From Campylobacteraceae bacterium (GTDB lineage Bacteria > Campylobacterota > Campylobacteria > Campylobacterales > Sulfurovaceae), in the NCBI GenBank assembly GCA_027065045.1, contig JAMOOX010000087.1, positions 30,912-94,911 on the forward strand: a stretch of 64,000 nt of DNA, in the 5' to 3' direction. The notes beneath the pieces were generated by a model. It had not been told where the DNA came from, made no database searches, and was given only the letters and a program-made list of their open reading frames with translations. The position numbers were made by a program, and so were the translations under genes. Position 1 is the first letter of the stretch. Every line of letters begins with the position of its first letter. Below, in pieces: positions 16,736-61,137 of the stretch.

Positions 16736-18076
16736 TTAATAATACTCTACCACTTTTTCCATACTCAAAGCCCCATCAAATAGAGTCTTCTCATCAAATA
16801 CCTTGGCAATTAGTTGTAATCCTATTGGCATACTATTACTATCTTTTGCCACTGGGATTGATATAGCTGGTAATCCTGCTAAATTTACACCAATAGTGTA
16901 CATATCACTCTTATACATCTCTAATGGGTCTTTACTTGAACCAATTTTAGGTGCTGTTGTAGGTGCTACTGGAGATAATATCAAATCAGCCTCTTGGAAT
17001 ATCGCATTAAACTCATCTCTTATTAAGTGTCTTACTTTTTGGGCTTTTAGATAATAAGCATCATAATATCCTGATGATAATACAAAGTTTCCTAAAAGTA
17101 TTCTTCTTTTTACTTCATCTCCAAACCCTTTGCTTCTTGTTTGGATAAATGTATCAGATAAATTACTTCCCTCTTCTCTACTTCCATATCTAATTCCATC
17201 ATATCTAGCAAGGTTTGTAGTAGCTTCAGCAGTAGCCACAATATAATAAGTTGCTATATCATATTTTGTATTTGTCATATTTTTATGGATTATTGTATGC
17301 CCTGCCTCTTGAAGCTTAGATAGAGTATCATTAAATGCTTTTTGTATCTCCTCATCTGCTTCGCTAATATAGTTATCAATTACAGCAATAGTTAATTTAC
17401 GATTACTATCAAGATTTGGATATATCTTCTTATCATCTCTATTAGCACTTGTAGAGTCTTTCTCATCATAGCCTACAATAGCATCATAGAGTATAGCACT
17501 ATCTTCAACATTTTGTGTAATTGGTCCAATCTGGTCAAGGCTTGAAGAGTAGGCACTAAGCCCATAACGGCTCACTCTTCCATAAGTTGGTTTCATTCCT
17601 ACACAACCACAATATGAAGCAGGTTGTCTAATACTCCCACCTGTATCACTTCCCAAAGCACAAATAGCTATCCCACCTGCTACAGCAGCAGCACTTCCAC
17701 CACTACTCCCCCCAGGTGTATGAGCCAAATTATGAGGATTTAGAGTCTTACCATAAAAACTACTCTCTGTTGTAGAACCCATAGCAAATTCGTCCATATT
17801 TGCCCTACCAAATGGAGCTAATCCATTTAATTTAAGGTTTTTAATCGCAGTTGCTTCATAAGGGGCAATATAGCCTTGAAGGATTTTAGAGGCACTTGTT
17901 ACACTCCACCCCTCTACTTGAATATTATCTTTGATAAGTACCGGCACACCATCACCACTACTATTAAAATCTATATAAGCATTTAATCCACCATCAATAG
18001 CTTTTTGCTTCATCTCCTCTTTTAATTTATCTAATTCATCTTGATTTTTTGTTAATGCCTCTTTTAAGGTAATCAT
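16736..18076 (-). CDS. gatA: Asp-tRNA(Asn)/Glu-tRNA(Gln) amidotransferase subunit A
   Basis: Amidase signature [12 protein letters not shown]...[12 protein letters not shown]. The MITLKEAL start at 18076 is preferred over the track start at 18100. Confidence 0.93.
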
Positions 18077-18261
18077 ATATAATCCTCTTACAAATTTCAT
18101 TTATAAGGATTATACAAAAGTCTAATTTATAAGGTGTTGAAATATCTAATATTTTAAAGAGTTATTTACAATCAATTATATATCTTATATATACGAGGCG
18201 TTGAATATACACTAAATTTATGCTATACTACCAACCTGTAAATGTAAATATAGCCAAAACA

Positions 18262-18605
18262 GTTTGCGAACTTTTTAGCTAAGTTTATTTTAAGCTAAAA
18301 TCACGATATACCCCTAAAAATGGGAGTTTAGTAGATTTTACCCAATTTTCAAAAAGTTCGCAAACCTAAGCTTTTTGAAAAGCACCAAGGAGGTTTGCGA
18401 ACTTTAAGTTTATTTTAAGATAAAACCCCCCGTATTTACGGCTTATGGGAGCTTAAGAGAACCTAAAAGTTCGTAAATTAACTTTTTGGACTACTACCCA
18501 AAGAGGTTTGCGAACTTTTTTGACCCCTCAAACCCCCTAAAAATGGGAGATTTAAGAAAAAACCAAGCTAAGTTTGTATATAATTTGACTTAGGTTTGCG
18601 AACTT
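18262..18605. repeat. tandem, degenerate ~90-130-bp repeat units anchored by the 12-mer GTTTGCGAACTT
   Basis: The exact 12-mer occurs at 18262, 18393, 18506 and 18594 (+). Its reverse complement AAGTTCGCAAAC is at 18354, and a degenerate copy AAGTTCGTAAAT is at 18467. The units also share AAGTTTATTTTAAG-TAAAA and CCCCTAAAAATGGGAG blocks. No ORF is present. Confidence 0.8.
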
Positions 18606-18684
18606 TTTTGCATTGTTCCATAAAATCGTACTGTTTTGTAGATTAATTTTTTTGGAAATTTAATAGTTTTATGATTATAAGGCT

Positions 18685-18866
18685 ATTTATATACCTATGA
18701 CCCGAATTAGGGGATTGAAACAAATCTTCTTCAGAGGCTAAAACACTATTGTTAGATTTATATACCTATGACCCGAATTAGGGGATTGAAACTTGTCTTT
18801 CCAAGTAAGCATACCATCTTTTCGGAAAGATTTATATACCTATGACCCGAATTAGGGGATTGAAAC
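18685..18866 (+). CRISPR. orphan CRISPR mini-array (3 identical 37-bp repeats, 2 spacers)
   Basis: The repeat ATTTATATACCTATGACCCGAATTAGGGGATTGAAAC occurs at 18685-18721, 18756-18792 and 18830-18866. The 34-bp and 37-bp spacers are unrelated to each other. An AT-rich leader-like stretch lies upstream. A 4th repeat, if present at about 18902-18938, is strongly degenerate. Confidence 0.8.
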
Positions 18867-19057
18867 CCTATTCTGAAAGTCAAATACTTAAACTCTTTAT
18901 TAGACTTCTTGCAAAACTTGGGAACTGATGCTTTAGCTTCAGTAGGTATTTAGTGAGGCTGAAGCCAAAGAGCAATAATCATTAAGTCATTGGTATTGAA
19001 AGCTTACTTGCCTATTAGGAGTGGGTGCTAAATGGTTACAATATTTTTAACATAAAA

Positions 19058-19447
19058 TTAAAACTCTTGTCTAATCTTATTTAATACTCTATCAAATGCT
19101 CCATCTTCATCATCTTTAAAATCACTTTGGACTTTATAATAACAATTTAATCCATTTGATATAGTAACTCTAATATATCCATTAAAATCACTTCCTACAC
19201 TTTTGACAATTGGATTATTACAATCTCTAATATGATATTTAAGTAGTTGGACTCTATATTTACAACTTTTATTATCTTCAAATCTAAAAGCATTTTGAAG
19301 TCTTTTTTTATCGCTATCTTTTATTAACATATCATAGCTAAGACAATTTAGAGTCTCTTTCTTGGTGCAAAATTTATCATAGATTGGGAAATCTTCTTGA
19401 CAACTTATAAATATAATAGATGTTAATATAAATATAATATTTCTCAT
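19058..19447 (-). CDS. hypothetical lipoprotein
   Basis: Signal peptide with a lipobox (IIFISC). No recognisable domain. Confidence 0.6.
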   Translation of the reverse strand: MRNIIFILTSIIFISCQEDFPIYDKFCTKKETLNCLSYDMLIKDSDKKRLQNAFRFEDNKSCKYRVQLLKYHIRDCNNPIVKSVGSDFNGYIRVTISNGLNCYYKVQSDFKDDEDGAFDRVLNKIRQEF

Positions 19448-20196
19448 TTTTTATCTTTTTTTAGTGATGCTATAAACTTATCTCTAATAGATATTGGAAT
19501 AAAAGATAGAAGCTTGATAATAATAAAAAATCTTTTTGGGAATTTATAACATCTTTTACTATTTTCAATAGCATATATAATTCTTTTTATTCCTTGTTGA
19601 GTAGTTAAAATAAATGGCATTTGAAAGTTGTTTTTATCTGTCATTGGAGATTTGATAAATCCTGGTAAGATATTGATTACTTCAATTGCATTTGGTTTGA
19701 GTAGGGTTCTTAATCCTTGTGCATAAGCATTTAAAGCCCTCTTAGAGCTACTATAAGCAATAGAACTTGGCATTGTAATAATTGAGGCTAAAGATGATAT
19801 TAAAACTATTTTAGAGCCTTGATTGAGAGAGGGGATTAAATGCTCTAATAAGGCATGGACGGATAAGAAATTTACATCTACTACTTTTTTTAAATCTTTA
19901 AAAGAGCTATATCCATTATGGGAATGTCCTAATGATATACCTGCATTTGCAATTATCATATCTATTATTGGCTCTTTTTGAGCTATCTCTTGAGTTATTT
20001 TTTGTAATTTATCAAAATCACTTACATCAACTTGATAAATTTCAACACTATTTGCACCAAGTAGTTTTAGTTCTTTTGATAGAGAAGATAATTTATCCTC
20101 TCTTCTTGATAATAAATATAAATTATTATTAGGTGCATAATACCTGCTTAATTCTCTACCTATACCAGAACTCGCACCTGTGATAATTATTATCAT
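19444..20196 (-). CDS. SDR family oxidoreductase
   Basis: TGASSGIGRE Rossmann motif and YSSSK catalytic motif. Confidence 0.85.
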   Translation of the reverse strand: MIIIITGASSGIGRELSRYYAPNNNLYLLSRREDKLSSLSKELKLLGANSVEIYQVDVSDFDKLQKITQEIAQKEPIIDMIIANAGISLGHSHNGYSSFKDLKKVVDVNFLSVHALLEHLIPSLNQGSKIVLISSLASIITMPSSIAYSSSKRALNAYAQGLRTLLKPNAIEVINILPGFIKSPMTDKNNFQMPFILTTQQGIKRIIYAIENSKRCYKFPKRFFIIIKLLSFIPISIRDKFIASLKKDKK

Positions 20197-20233
20197 TTTT
20201 TTATATCCAATAAAATGGTTTTAATAAACTTTT

Positions 20234-20307
20234 GGTGGGATTCTCCCACCCTACATAAAATATAATTATCATTTTAAAAGCAACTCGTAGGGTGGGTGAA
20301 ACCCACC
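20234..20307. repeat. inverted pair of GC-rich hairpin elements (REP-like)
   Basis: GGTGGGATTCTCCCACCCTAC at 20234-20254 and GTAGGGTGGGTGAAACCCACC at 20287-20307 are inverted copies of one 21-nt motif. Each is itself a 6-7-bp hairpin, and they stand out as GC-rich in an AT-rich spacer. Confidence 0.6.
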
Positions 20308-20326
20308 ATTATTAAATAATTATATA

Positions 20327-21400
20327 TTATCTTGATACATAATCAGCAATTAATGAACCAATCTCACTTGTAGCACAAACCTCTTTTGCATCATAAGCAC
20401 TAATATCACCAGTTCTATAACCCTCACTCAATACCTTATGAATAGCATCATCAATTCTTTGAGATGCTTCATCTTCACCTAAAGCATACTTAAGCATCAT
20501 AGATACACTTGAGATTGTGGCTAATGGATTGGCTATTCCTTGTCCTGCAATATCTGGGGCAGAACCGTGGATTGGCTCAAATAGTCCTACTTTATTACCT
20601 GTACTTGCACTTGGTAATAGTCCAATAGAACCACTTAGCATACTAGCAGCATCACTTAAAATATCTCCAAAAATATTTCCTGTTAAAATAACATCAAACT
20701 GTTTTGGTTCTCTAATAAGTTGCATAGCAGCATTATCTACATACATATGAGTAAGTTCAACTTCAGGATAATCTTTGGCTACATCTTCTACAATATCTCT
20801 CCAAAATTGACTCACTTCTAGTACATTTGCTTTATCAACAGAACATACTCTTTTATCTCTTTTCATAGCTATATCAAATGCTACTTTGGCAATTCTTACT
20901 ACCTCTTCTCTTGTATAAATCATAGTATTGTATGCTTTATCTTCTAAGTTTTCTCTAGGTTCTCCAAAATATATTCCACCAGTAAGTTCTCTAACTACCA
21001 TTAAATCTACACCTTGGATAACGCTTGGTTTTAAAGTAGAAGCATTGATAAGTTCATCATATACCATAGCAGGGCGTAAGTTTGCATAAGTCCCCATAGC
21101 TTTTCTAAGTCCTAAAAGTCCAGTTTCAGGGCGTAAATGTCTCTCTAAATTATCCCATTTTGGCCCACCAATTGCACCAAATAAAACAGCATCACATTTT
21201 TGCACACCTTTGATAGTCTCATCAGGTAGAGGTACGCCTGTCTCATCAATAGCGATACCACCTAGTAAAAACTCTTCATAATTTACTTCAAAGTTCATTT
21301 TTGTAGATACTGCATCTAATACTTTTACAGCCTCTTCAATAATCTCAGGGCCTATCCCATCCCCTTTGATAATACCTATTTTATATATTTTATTACCCAT
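20327..21400 (-). CDS. leuB: 3-isopropylmalate dehydrogenase
   Basis: 357 aa with typical LeuB sequence ([26 protein letters not shown]). Confidence 0.95.
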
Positions 21401-59085: not shown

Positions 59086-61137
59086 TTAGTGTGCAATATT
59101 TTCCATAAAGAGTTTAAATGATAAGAATTGTCCCCAATATTTTTTGAGAAGTGGCTCAAATCTAGCTGGATTTTCACAATGTTGTATCTCTTCTAATGTC
59201 TCTGAAAGAGGTATAATTCGTAAATTACTAGAAGCCCCTTTTAACTTATGTCCTGTCTTTTGAATAGTATCAATATCACCCTCTGCAAAAGCCTTAATAA
59301 AAGTCTCTTTCTCTTCTACTGCTTGGTCAACAAAGTCATTTACAAACTCTTCAATCAAATCAACAGGAAGACTTAAATCATCTGCTGCCTCTTCTAATCT
59401 AAAGTCAAAATGGATAGGCTTAATACCATCTAGTTCTAAAGTTCCAAATCCTTGTGGCTCTTCCTCTTTAGGCTCTATTTTCTCTTCTACTTTCTTTTCT
59501 ATTGGTTCTTCTATCTCTTGAGGTTTTTCATTAGATACAGTAGTGATTTGTCCTAAACATTCAAAGTATATATCAACAAGCTCTTCTTCAAGATAATCTC
59601 TCTCTTGCATATCTACAAGTATCTCTTCTAAGTTTGCTATCTCTAAACTCTCTGCAATACTTTGCAACTCTTCTAAAGCTTCTTCTCTTGCAGATTTATC
59701 CTCTGAGCGTAAATCCTCATCACAAATAATAGATTTGTCTATAAATTCATTTAAAAAATCTTGATAATCAGTAGCAGATATTCCCATATCTTCACTTCTA
59801 TCATCTATATTTATCTCTATAGTATCATCACAATTATAATCTTTGATAGGTTTTTTCTCTATTTTTTTCTCTATTTTTTTCTCTACTTTTGGCTCTTCTT
59901 TAGGAGATACTTTATCTTCATCAATATCTAAAAGTAAATCTTTAATCTCCTCTACTTCTTCTTTGAGTTCCTCTTTTTGAGGAGTAGAGATAGGCTTTTC
60001 AACATCTAAAAGTAAATCATCAATATCTTCTATCTCCTCCTCTTCTACTTTAGGTTCTTCTTTTTTGGGTGCAGGTTCTTCAAGGTCTAAAAGTAAATCA
60101 TCAATCTCTTCAACCTCCTCCTCTTCTACCTTTGGCTCTTCTTTAGGAGATACTTTATCTTCATCAATATCTAAAAGTAAATCTTTAATCTCCTCTACCT
60201 CTTCTTTGACTTCCTCTTTTTGAGGAGTAGAGATAGGCTTTTCAACATCTAAAAGTAAATCATCAATCTCTTCAACCTCCTCCTCTTCTACCTTTGGCCC
60301 TTCTTTTTTAGGTGCAGGTTCTTCAAGGTCTAAAAGTAAATCATCAATCTCTTCAACCTCCTCCTCTTCTTCCTCTTCAATATCATCAATCTTTAGCTCT
60401 TCTTGAGGTGTAGGTTCTTCAATATCTAAAAGAAACTCATTACTCTCTTCAATTTCTACCTCTTCCTCTTCAATATCATCAATCTTTAGCTCTTCTTGAG
60501 GTGTAGGTTCTTCAATATCTAAAAGAAGCTCATTACTCTCTTCAAGCTCCTCTTCTTCTTTATTATCTTCTAATAATTTAGATAGAGTATCTTCAAATAA
60601 CTCCTCTTTAGGTTCAATAGTCTCTACTGATGGCTCTAATTTAGCCATTGTAGTTTTTGGATTTTGAAGTTCTTGACTAGCCTCTTCCAAATCTTGTTCT
60701 AATTGACTTTTTTTCTCTTCTATTATAGGTGTTTTTTTAATTGGTTTTGTAATAACTTCATCGTCATCATCATCAAAGAAAATACTAGGGATTTTCTTTT
60801 TAGGTTTTTTAGGTTCATCATCTAATAGAATATTTAATTTATTTACACTTTTTATGTCATCTTTTTTATCATTAGCTTTAGATTTAGATACAGTATTGTA
60901 TAACTTTACTAATATTATATCTCCAAAAGTTGTTTTGATAGTATATTCTTCATAAGCACTTTGAATTGTACTTACATCTGAAATAATTGTTAGTTTTCTA
61001 TCACTGATTTTAGTAATCTTTATATCATTATTGACTACCTTACTAAAGAGAATAGGCAGATTATCAATCTCCAAAATCTCCAATAGTTCATAGTCAGCAG
61101 CTACAATTTGTCTCTCTTGATTTAACATATAATACAT
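59086..61137 (-). CDS. HPt (histidine phosphotransfer) domain protein with a very large acidic repeat region
   Basis: The C-terminal QKTGHKLKGASSNLRI matches the HPt motif HxLKGxxxxxG. The middle ~350 aa is Glu/Asp/Leu-rich tandem repeats. The start may be 61137 or 61128. Confidence 0.75.
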   Translation of the reverse strand: MYYMLNQERQIVAADYELLEILEIDNLPILFSKVVNNDIKITKISDRKLTIISDVSTIQSAYEEYTIKTTFGDIILVKLYNTVSKSKANDKKDDIKSVNKLNILLDDEPKKPKKKIPSIFFDDDDDEVITKPIKKTPIIEEKKSQLEQDLEEASQELQNPKTTMAKLEPSVETIEPKEELFEDTLSKLLEDNKEEEELEESNELLLDIEEPTPQEELKIDDIEEEEVEIEESNEFLLDIEEPTPQEELKIDDIEEEEEEEVEEIDDLLLDLEEPAPKKEGPKVEEEEVEEIDDLLLDVEKPISTPQKEEVKEEVEEIKDLLLDIDEDKVSPKEEPKVEEEEVEEIDDLLLDLEEPAPKKEEPKVEEEEIEDIDDLLLDVEKPISTPQKEELKEEVEEIKDLLLDIDEDKVSPKEEPKVEKKIEKKIEKKPIKDYNCDDTIEINIDDRSEDMGISATDYQDFLNEFIDKSIICDEDLRSEDKSAREEALEELQSIAESLEIANLEEILVDMQERDYLEEELVDIYFECLGQITTVSNEKPQEIEEPIEKKVEEKIEPKEEEPQGFGTLELDGIKPIHFDFRLEEAADDLSLPVDLIEEFVNDFVDQAVEEKETFIKAFAEGDIDTIQKTGHKLKGASSNLRIIPLSETLEEIQHCENPARFEPLLKKYWGQFLSFKLFMENIAH
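59885..60560. repeat. in-frame coding tandem repeats inside the HPt gene
   Basis: Two near-identical 243-bp (81-codon) units run from about 59885-60127 and 60128-60370. Two 93-bp units follow at about 60375-60560. Boundaries are approximate. Confidence 0.8.

What the first reader, a model, noticed from the sequence alone, without database searches (positions are those of the whole stretch)
18685..18973. Orphan mini-CRISPR array with type I/III-style ATTGAAAC handle and no cas genes within the 64-kb window
Three perfectly identical 37-bp repeats flank two unique spacers (34 and 37 bp). The repeat ends in ATTGAAAC, the canonical 8-nt 5' handle left by Cas6 processing in many type I and III systems. 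No cas gene is visible anywhere in the window; the array lies between gatA and a lipoprotein gene. The perfect repeat identity argues against a long-dead relic. A possible degenerate terminal repeat lies at about 18902-18938 (TTGGGAACTGA versus TTAGGGGATTGA). An imperfect 13-bp hairpin (GCTTTAGCTTCAG...CTGAAGCCAAAGAGC) follows at 18930-18973. Small isolated arrays can be trans-served by a distant cas locus or act as regulatory or anti-mobile-element decoys.
Basis: partly seen in the sequence, partly recalled or inferred. Interest (0 to 1): 0.6.

Follow-up and report, generated by a model that had tools for sequence, protein, structure and literature searches.

The report
Small distant CRISPR array with leader
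This is a real but very small CRISPR array (three repeats, two spacers) with its own complete leader; the cas genes that probably serve it sit elsewhere in the same genome, so it is an ordinary "distant" array, possibly caught just after gaining a spacer.

Summary
Three identical 37-nt repeats (ATTTATATACCTATGACCCGAATTAGGGGATTGAAAC) lie at 18685, 18756 and 18830, with spacers of 34 and 37 nt. This repeat occurs nowhere else in the 2.06-Mb genome.

The array is not an orphan. Other contigs carry a cas6/type III-A plus III-D-like locus with cas1-cas2, a type III-B locus with RT-cas1/cas2, and a I-F-like locus. Three further arrays have a related 35-nt repeat.

Window 18254-18684 is a full-length 430-nt CRISPR leader with six TTTGCGAAC boxes. 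It is collinear with the leaders that follow RT-cas1/cas2 in this genome and in other Campylobacterota.

A closely related metagenome contig has the same leader (about 97% identical), the same repeat with one mismatch, and a different spacer. There it sits beside the type III accessory genes. A second assembly of this same organism is identical except that it lacks exactly the leader-proximal repeat plus spacer 1. That fits a recent polarised acquisition.

The proposed degenerate fourth repeat and the hairpin belong to a dispersed MITE-like element. No protospacer or self-target was found.

Verdict: a genuine, probably live, trans-served distant array, and a new member of a known kind.

The parts
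18196..18234 (+). 39-nt promoter-like element (TTGAAT-17 nt-TATACT with TG) just upstream of the leader. Whether it belongs to the array unit is uncertain.
   Evidence: The promoter scan finds it. There is a 100% identical copy at C56:504-542 and a 95% copy in same-genus genome G002. It lies outside the block shared with the metagenome relative, whose homology starts at 18254.
18254..18684 (+). CRISPR leader of about 430 nt with six TTTGCGAAC boxes. Box cores lie at 18262-18271 (+), 18356-18365 (-), 18393-18402 (+), 18469-18477 (-, degenerate GTTCGTAAA), 18506-18515 (+) and 18594-18603 (+). Small G+C hairpins (CCCCTAAAAATGGG at 18311 and 18534; CCCCCCGTATTTACGG at about 18428) lie between boxes.
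   Evidence: It is collinear over its full length with the leader after RT-cas1/cas2 on C127:32400-32837 and with the leader after RT-cas1 in family relative G020 (alignment A1, 72% column identity, all boxes in the same order and orientation). It is about 97% identical to metagenome contig Ga0256826_1022066. The same boxes lie between RT-cas1/cas2 and arrays in Sulfurimonas, Campylobacter concisus and others.
18685..18721 (+). Repeat 1, leader-proximal: ATTTATATACCTATGACCCGAATTAGGGGATTGAAAC
   Evidence: This repeat plus spacer 1 is the unit absent from the second assembly of the same organism.
18722..18755 (+). Spacer 1 (34 nt): AAATCTTCTTCAGAGGCTAAAACACTATTGTTAG
   Evidence: Unique in the genome. 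Absent from ENA ERZ27262656 k141_360399, which is otherwise 100% identical. No protospacer in phages, plasmids, IMG/VR or 400 genomes of the order.
18756..18792 (+). Repeat 2
18793..18829 (+). Spacer 2 (37 nt): TTGTCTTTCCAAGTAAGCATACCATCTTTTCGGAAAG
   Evidence: Unique in the genome. Present in both assemblies. No protospacer found.
18830..18866 (+). Repeat 3, the last one; a perfect copy
18867..18898 (+). Trailer of 32 nt with no repeat after it
   Evidence: No match to the repeat above shuffled controls anywhere in 18867-19057.
18899..19000 (+). Dispersed MITE-like element, not part of the array. Its inverted-repeat end is TTAGACTTCTTGCAAAACT and it holds an imperfect hairpin at 18930-18965.
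   Evidence: Copies lie at C56:11756-11842, C132:14769-14856, C106:2718-2764, C93:26418-26489, C132:8266-8330 and C127:12473-12569. There are more than 10 copies each in same-genus genomes G001 and G002. Fold.

Best explanation
This is a genuine, minimal CRISPR locus made of a complete 430-nt leader plus three repeats and two spacers. It sits at least 47 kb from any cas gene, between gatA and a small lipoprotein-like gene.

Shown:
- The leader belongs to the conserved six-box (TTTGCRAAC) class that follows RT-cas1/cas2 in Campylobacterota.
- The repeat is a divergent member of the 35-37-nt ...TGACCCGAnnTnAGGGGATTGAAAC family that those loci use.
- The genome encodes Cas6, three type III effector modules and two candidate adaptation modules, all on other contigs.
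- Spacer content differs between two assemblies of this organism, and differs again in a near relative.

Inferred mechanism:
1. The array is transcribed from the leader.
2. The pre-crRNA is cut by the genome's Cas6 (C119:1230-2057, at the head of the type III-A operon) 8 nt before the end of each repeat. This gives crRNAs with a 5' AUUGAAAC tag.
3. These crRNAs are loaded in trans into Csm and/or Cmr (and the III-D-like) complexes for transcription-dependent interference against unknown mobile elements.
4. New spacers enter at the leader end through RT-Cas1/Cas2 (matching leader) or the plain Cas1/Cas2 on C10 (closer repeat). Spacer 1 is the most recent gain.
For: Array anatomy.

Leader homology: the leader aligns end to end with the leader after RT-cas1/cas2 on C127 and with the leader after RT-cas1 in relative G020. 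The G020 array repeat, GTAGACAGACCAATGACCCGATTCAGGGGATTAAAAC, closely resembles this one. The same boxes lie upstream of arrays of this repeat family, downstream of RT-Cas1 proteins 41-42% identical to C127's, in Sulfurimonas and C. concisus.

cas genes in trans: type III-B with RT-Cas1/Cas2; cas6-csm1-5, a III-D-like module and cas1/cas2; RAMP hits only on C10 and C127.

Repeat relatedness: the 3' 24 nt of the repeat, covering the CCC/GGG mini-stem and the 8-nt tag, nearly match the cas-adjacent C10 repeat. Both fold the same way.

Cas association elsewhere: metagenome contig Ga0256826_1022066 carries the same leader (about 97% identical) and the same repeat with 1 mismatch, but a different spacer. 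There it lies right after homologues of the C10 locus's accessory ORFs, so the unit is cas-adjacent in that relative.

Spacer turnover: the second assembly, ERZ27262656 k141_360399, is 100% identical across 18080-19070 except for a clean 71-nt absence of the leader-proximal repeat plus spacer 1.

Lineage-specific insertion: same-genus genomes have only 58-205 nt upstream of gatA and no array.

Trans service is normal here: two other arrays in this genome (C40, C75) also sit among housekeeping genes.
Against:
- No protospacer was found for either spacer.
- The 5' third of the repeat differs from the cas-adjacent repeat, so Cas6 and integrase compatibility is not assured.
- The Cas6 hit is below the family's curated cut-off (40 bits against 58.65).
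- The leader matches the RT-Cas1 array, but that array uses an unrelated repeat.
- This genome's RT-Cas1 lacks the RT active-site segment.
- The one-unit difference between assemblies could also be a repeat-repeat deletion (an a priori 1 in 2 chance of hitting the leader-proximal unit) or an assembler choice.
Confidence: 0.7

Rival explanations
1. Inert remnant. The leader plus a few repeats was moved or left behind by rearrangement of a type III locus, and is no longer transcribed, processed or extended. The difference between assemblies would be a recombinational loss of one unit.
For: - The array is very small.
- It lies in a junk-rich intergenic region next to a MITE-like element.
- No protospacers were found.
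- Distant arrays are on average shorter, and some are decaying (PMC7145637).
- In the relative, the second repeat is already degenerate at its 3' end.
Against: - All three repeats are perfect.
- The 430-nt leader is about 97% conserved with a relative whose spacer is different.
- All six boxes are intact.
- The unit that differs between assemblies is the leader-proximal one.
- Compatible cas genes are present.
Confidence: 0.22
2. Regulatory or decoy mini-array. Its crRNAs would guide type III or type I complexes to host or cas promoters by partial complementarity, as described for mini-arrays by Shmakov et al. (PMC10120712).
For: It is mini-array sized, and such elements are known.
Against: - Described regulatory mini-arrays sit inside cas loci, usually have degenerate repeat-like sequences, and have spacers partly matching cas or cargo promoters.
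- Here the repeats are perfect and the locus is far from cas genes.
- The best genome-wide matches of the spacers (25/34 and 25/37) equal those of shuffled spacers (23-25), and none lies on a cas contig.
Confidence: 0.05
3. Non-CRISPR tandem or dispersed repeat that happens to look like an array.
For: The region is full of other dispersed repeats.
Against: - The 37-mer occurs only here.
- It belongs to a repeat family found beside cas genes in many Campylobacterota.
- It carries a bona fide leader homologous to cas-adjacent leaders.
Confidence: 0.01

Closest known systems
Distant CRISPR arrays used in trans by cas loci elsewhere in the genome (Bernheim et al. 2019, PMC7145637; multi-array type III hosts such as Thermus thermophilus and Sulfolobus, from my own knowledge)
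   Same: The array is more than 20 kb from any cas gene. Its repeat is of the same class as the cas-adjacent arrays in the same genome. It is shorter than cas-adjacent arrays.
   Different: It is unusually small (2 spacers). Its repeat is not identical to any cas-adjacent repeat in the genome: only the 3' two-thirds match. Its leader matches the leader of a different array (the III-B/RT-Cas1 one).
RT-Cas1/Cas2-associated type III arrays (Marinomonas mediterranea III-B; Vibrio vulnificus III-D, PMC6821258; PMC11014452)
   Same: The leader is homologous to leaders that directly follow RT-cas1/cas2 in this genome, in G020, in Sulfurimonas and in C. concisus. The repeats are 35-37 nt and the systems are type III.
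   Different: No RT-cas1 is adjacent here. This genome's RT-Cas1 has lost the segment carrying the YADD box. As far as my searches went, the six-box leader architecture has not been described in the papers I found (not read in depth).
Regulatory or viral mini-arrays (Shmakov et al. 2023, PMC10120712; virus-borne mini-arrays, from my own knowledge)
   Same: One to two spacers between repeats.
   Different: The repeats are perfect and a full leader is present. The flanks are chromosomal housekeeping genes. There is no partial match to cas promoters or host genes.

Membership tests
CRISPR array | Three or more near-identical direct repeats of 23-50 nt, regularly spaced by unique spacers of similar length | tested here: met
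   Three identical 37-nt repeats with spacers of 34 and 37 nt. The spacers are unique in the genome.
CRISPR array | Repeat belongs to a family found next to cas genes | tested here: met
   The pattern GACCCG-N4-7-GGGGATTGAAAC occurs in many Campylobacterota arrays. The nearest relatives lie next to RT-cas1 in G020 and next to type III accessory genes in Ga0256826_1022066.
CRISPR array | A/T-rich leader on the side predicted by repeat orientation, homologous to leaders of cas-adjacent arrays | tested here: met
   Window 18254-18684 is collinear with the C127 and G020 leaders. The boxes are shared with the L030, L040 and L060 group of loci.
CRISPR array | Spacer content varies between strains, with polarity towards the leader | tested here: met
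   ERZ27262656 lacks only the leader-proximal unit. The relative has a different spacer. This rests on only two comparisons, and deletion is not excluded.
CRISPR array | Transcribed and processed into crRNAs | not testable with these tools
CRISPR array | Spacers match mobile elements | tested here: inconclusive
   There are only chance-level hits in phages and plasmids (E of 1 or more). There are no exact hits in IMG/VR. Spacer 1 is absent from 400 genomes of the order. The databases cover this environment poorly.
Orphan CRISPR array (no cognate cas genes in the genome) | Genome lacks cas genes | tested here: not met
   Three Cas1 hits, a Cas6, Csm1-5, Cmr2/4/5/6, a Csx10-like protein and Cas2 twice.
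Distant array (sensu PMC7145637) | More than 20 kb from the nearest cas cluster, with a repeat type compatible with a cas cluster in trans | tested here: met
   The array lies 49.6 kb and 47 kb from the ends of contig C87, which has no Cas1, Cas6 or RAMP hit. The repeat's 3' part matches the repeat of the C10 type III array.
Regulatory mini-array (Shmakov et al.) | Spacer partially complementary to a cas or cargo promoter, and located within a cas locus | tested here: not met
   Best host matches equal those of shuffled controls, and the locus is not in a cas locus.
Type III crRNA source with an 8-nt 5' tag | Repeat ends in an 8-nt tag (AUUGAAAC) preceded by a small stem, and Cas6 is present | tested here: met
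   The sequence ends ...GGGGATTGAAAC with a CCC/GGG stem. A Cas6 candidate is present, though below the curated cut-off. Actual cleavage was not tested.

The most novel reading that the evidence does not exclude
The 430-nt six-box leader plus a single repeat may be a portable 'array seed' that the (RT-)Cas1/Cas2 integrase recognises wherever it lands. On this reading the mini-array is a newborn ectopic array caught during its first acquisitions. It has one spacer in one assembly, two in the other, and a different single spacer in a near relative, where the same unit sits beside the type III genes. That would show how new CRISPR arrays are founded away from cas loci. It would also point to the TTTGCRAAC boxes as the sites that recruit the integrase or a host factor.
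Probability: 0.2. Interest if true: 0.55.

Novelty: new member of a known kind. Interest (0 to 1): 0.3.

Why it matters
On its own this is an ordinary finding. About a quarter of CRISPR arrays lie far from cas genes, and most of those match a cas system encoded in trans (PMC7145637).

Two points give it modest value. First, the one-unit, leader-end difference between two assemblies of the same organism offers a natural before-and-after pair for spacer acquisition in an uncultured Campylobacterota type III host. Second, it shows that the conserved six-box leader travels with the array as a discrete unit, with a sharp 5' boundary at CCAAAAC in four different contexts. That makes the unexplained TTTGCRAAC boxes a testable candidate for leader recognition in RT-Cas1-type systems.

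Tried and rejected
- Rfam scan of 17000-20500: no family matched.
- Exact 28-nt repeat core in genome contigs and metagenome contigs: 0 hits. Only degenerate patterns found relatives.
- The repeat with up to 3 mismatches in 60 relatives: found only in the own genome.
- Pfam Cas6 model PF01881: no hit in the genome. Only TIGR01877 gave a sub-threshold hit.
- Protospacer searches in phages, plasmids, IMG/VR, the own genome and 400 genomes of the order: nothing above chance. Spacer 2 was not run against the 400 genomes.
- Degenerate fourth repeat: rejected.
- Terminator scan: none found.
- Sigma-70 scan: no convincing promoter right at the leader-repeat junction. The only hit is the 18201-18229 element upstream of the leader.
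- Looking for other samples carrying this locus through exact-protein look-ups: only one further assembly covered the array. A look-up for the C40 array's neighbour gave only a 1-kb contig.
- The organism's name was not established. Relatives that share the repeat and leader are Sulfurimonas, Sulfurovum and Campylobacter.

Full report
**1. Observation**

Window 18685-18866 holds three 100% identical 37-nt direct repeats, ATTTATATACCTATGACCCGAATTAGGGGATTGAAAC. They start at 18685, 18756 and 18830. They are separated by unique spacers of 34 nt (18722-18755) and 37 nt (18793-18829). The bases on either side of the three copies differ, so the repeat is exactly 37 nt.

The window is C87:30912-94911 of a 2.06-Mb, 29.6% G+C draft genome in 164 contigs. 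A scan allowing up to 8 mismatches finds the 37-mer only at these three places. It is therefore not a dispersed repeat.

To the left lies gatA (TIGR00132, E 1e-172). To the right lies a 129-aa ORF with a lipobox-like N-terminus, followed by an SDR gene and leuB.

**2. The genome is not cas-less**

Cas1 models hit three contigs.

- C127:21411-32399 is a type III-B operon. It has a CorA-like gene, a short Cmr2/Cas10, Cmr4, Cmr5 and Cmr6, and ends in an RT-Cas1 fusion (705 aa) and Cas2.
- C119 (reverse complement) joins C10. The two contig ends encode the same Cas10 peptide. Together they give cas6-csm1-csm2-csm3-csm4-csm5 (III-A). After that come a III-D-like module (short Cas10, Csx7-like fused RAMP, TIGR03986 Csx10-like RAMP), accessory genes, cas1, cas2, a leader and an array.
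- C143 carries a Cas1 next to a 28-nt I-F-like array.
- RAMP hits occur only on C10 and C127.

A simple array finder shows seven arrays:

| Repeat | Contigs |
|---|---|
| 35-nt ATTACAACATTGACCCGATTT(G/A)AGGGGATTGAAAC | C10, C40, C75 |
| 37-nt GTTTCCCTGCTTATTTGTGGGGAGGTTATTTTAAGAC | end of C127, continuing on C56 |
| 28-nt I-F-like | C58, C143 |
| 37-nt mini-array repeat | C87 (this window) |

The mini-array repeat shares its 3' 24 nt with the C10-type repeat. That stretch covers TGACCCGA..T.AGGGGATTGAAAC, meaning the weak CCC/GGG stem and the 8-nt tag. Both repeats fold alike.

By eye, the C40 and C75 arrays also sit among housekeeping genes: exbB/exbD-like genes and atp genes for C40, an amidase, atpE and mgtE for C75. 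Arrays far from cas genes are therefore normal in this genome.

**3. The leader**

It is in fact the CRISPR leader.

Window 18254-18684 aligns end to end with two other leaders. The first is C127:32400-32837, the sequence between the cas2 stop codon and the first repeat of the III-B/RT-Cas1 array. The second lies between RT-cas1 and an array in a family-level relative (G020:C220). Mean column identity is 72%, and six TTTGC(G/A)AAC boxes sit in the same order and orientation (+ - + - + +).

The G020 array repeat, GTAGACAGACCAATGACCCGATTCAGGGGATTAAAAC, is 37 nt and very close to the mini-array repeat. Its locus is Cas10...Csx10-like-cas2-RT-cas1-leader-array.

The same 13-nt box (TTTGCRAACTTTT) occurs in three to five copies about 100 nt apart. 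It lies between a 745-aa RT-Cas1 (41-42% identical to C127's) plus Cas2 and arrays of the GACCCG...GGGGATTGAAAC family. This holds in Sulfurimonas sp. RIFOXYB12, several Campylobacter concisus strains, other Campylobacter MAGs and a Helicobacter MAG. An independent first-reader note on another genome describes the same boxes (e1-4188982).

The mini-array therefore carries the canonical leader for its repeat family. The leader is on the side expected from the ATTGAAAC orientation.

**4. Relatives of the unit**

No public genome or metagenome contig has the exact 28-nt repeat core. A degenerate pattern found contig Ga0256826_1022066.

That contig holds the same leader, about 97% identical, with homology starting sharply at CCAAAACAG (window 18254). 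It is followed by the repeat with one mismatch, one different spacer, and a second repeat that is degenerate at its 3' end.

In that contig the unit lies directly after close homologues of the 181-, 159- and 172-aa accessory ORFs of this genome's C10 type III locus. It is followed by a REP hairpin and a RAYT-type transposase gene. In a near relative, then, the same leader-array unit is cas-adjacent. This ties the repeat to that type III locus and shows that the unit has changed place.

Five genomes of the same genus have only 58-205 nt upstream of gatA, where examined. None shows an array there. The 957-nt intergenic region here is a lineage-specific insertion.

**5. Spacer turnover**

An exact-protein look-up of the neighbouring 129-aa ORF found a second assembly of the same organism: ENA ERZ27262656, contig k141_360399, 96,387 nt.

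Across window 18080-19070 it is 100% identical except for a clean 71-nt absence. The missing piece is exactly repeat 1 plus spacer 1, the leader-proximal unit.

This is what polarised spacer acquisition predicts. A repeat-repeat deletion would hit this unit or the other with equal chance, and an assembler's choice between co-existing alleles is also possible.

Three observations together favour a living array over a relic: the different spacer in the relative, the perfect repeats and the intact leader.

**6. Parts of the finding that fail**

The 'degenerate terminal repeat' (about 18902-18938) aligns to the repeat no better than shuffled sequence (17.5 against a median of 18.0).

That stretch and the 'hairpin' are one copy of a MITE-like element. 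Its inverted-repeat end is TTAGACTTCTTGCAAAACT and its long imperfect hairpin spans 18930-18965. The element has at least seven copies in this genome and more than ten in each of two congeners.

One copy also abuts the far end of the C56/C127 array, but in the opposite orientation. The association is probably just accumulation of junk at array ends.

**7. Targets**

Neither spacer has a significant match in 50,697 phage records or 72,556 plasmids (best E of 1 or more). Exact 27-28-mers from each spacer are absent from IMG/VR. Spacer 1 is absent, at up to 3 mismatches, from 400 genomes of the order.

The best matches in the own genome are 25/34 and 25/37, equal to shuffled controls, and none lies on a cas contig. 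There is thus no sign of self-targeting or of a regulatory mini-array of the kind Shmakov et al. describe (PMC10120712).

**8. Mechanism**

Shown: the anatomy, the leader homology, compatible cas genes in trans, and variable spacer content.

Inferred:
1. The array is transcribed from the leader.
2. The single recognisable Cas6 cuts 8 nt from the 3' end of each repeat.
3. AUUGAAAC-tagged crRNAs load into Csm, Cmr or III-D-like complexes.
4. Spacers enter at the leader end.

Which integrase acts is open. The leader matches the RT-Cas1 array, but the repeat is closer to that of the plain Cas1/Cas2 array. This genome's RT-Cas1 also lacks about 40 residues, including the F/YADD box present in all three homologues compared. 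If it acts here, it probably acts as an integrase only.

The function of the TTTGCRAAC boxes is unknown. All boxes change together (G to A) in G020. That fits sites for a DNA-binding protein (a host factor, the integrase or a regulator) as well as it fits hairpins.

**9. Comparison and verdict**

In the terms of Bernheim et al. (PMC7145637), this is a 'distant' array, not an 'orphan'. In their survey about 23% of arrays are distant, and 75% of those match a cas subtype in trans. They also report that such arrays are shorter than cas-adjacent ones.

The locus is a new member of a known kind. Two features give it modest extra interest: the apparent capture of a one-spacer gain, and the discrete, relocatable leader-array unit.

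Confidence that it is a true CRISPR array is about 0.95. Confidence that it currently works in trans as described is about 0.7.

Noticed in passing
G000 C127:29998-32115 (not in window): The RT-Cas1 fusion of the type III-B locus (705 aa) lacks about 40 residues that include the reverse-transcriptase F/YADD active-site box. All three homologues compared (Sulfurimonas, C. concisus, G020) have it. The reading frame stays open, so it is probably an RT-dead integrase.
   Followed up: partly
G000 C127:21411-25322 (not in window): The type III-B operon starts with a CorA-like membrane protein (502 aa) and has a short Cas10 (425 aa, no HD region). It also contains a nucleotidyltransferase/HEPN-like small gene pair. 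It resembles CorA-associated type III-B systems.
   Followed up: no
window 18899-19000; also C56:11756-11842, C132:14769-14856, C106:2718-2764, C93:26418-26489, C132:8266-8330, C127:12473-12569: A MITE-like element of about 70-100 nt with inverted ends (TAGACTTCTTGCAAAACT) and a long imperfect hairpin. It is abundant in two same-genus genomes (more than 10 copies each). Two copies abut the trailer ends of CRISPR arrays, in opposite orientations.
   Followed up: partly
window 18196-18234 and C56:504-542: A 39-nt stretch with a good extended -10 promoter-like site (TTGAAT-17 nt-TATACT) is 100% identical at both places, and 95% identical in a congener. On C56 it precedes a short ORF starting MPRKPRIDSAG (like the N-terminus of RAYT/IS200-type transposases) that overlaps a copy of the hairpin element.
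   Followed up: no
G000 C40:671-2950 (not in window): A 30-repeat array with its leader sits between an exbB/tolQ-like gene and an exbD/tolR-like gene, next to the ATP synthase genes. It seems to split what is normally an operon.
   Followed up: no
G000 C119(rc)+C10 (not in window): A type III-A (cas6, csm1-5) module and a III-D-like module (second short Cas10, fused Csx7-like RAMP, Csx10-like RAMP) lie in tandem in one locus. They share a single cas1-cas2 and array.
   Followed up: partly
window about 59930-60510 (C87:90838-91416): Imperfect tandem repeats of about 100 nt (ATCTAAAAGTAAATC...CTCCTCTTC). They are probably a repetitive acidic protein-coding region on the minus strand. The array finder picked them up, but they are not CRISPR.
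   Followed up: no
window 18428-18441; C10:21520-21535; C40:2735-2750; C75:875-890: The small hairpin CCGTATTTACGG inside this leader also occurs right next to the first repeat in the otherwise different, shorter leaders of the three 35-nt arrays.
   Followed up: no
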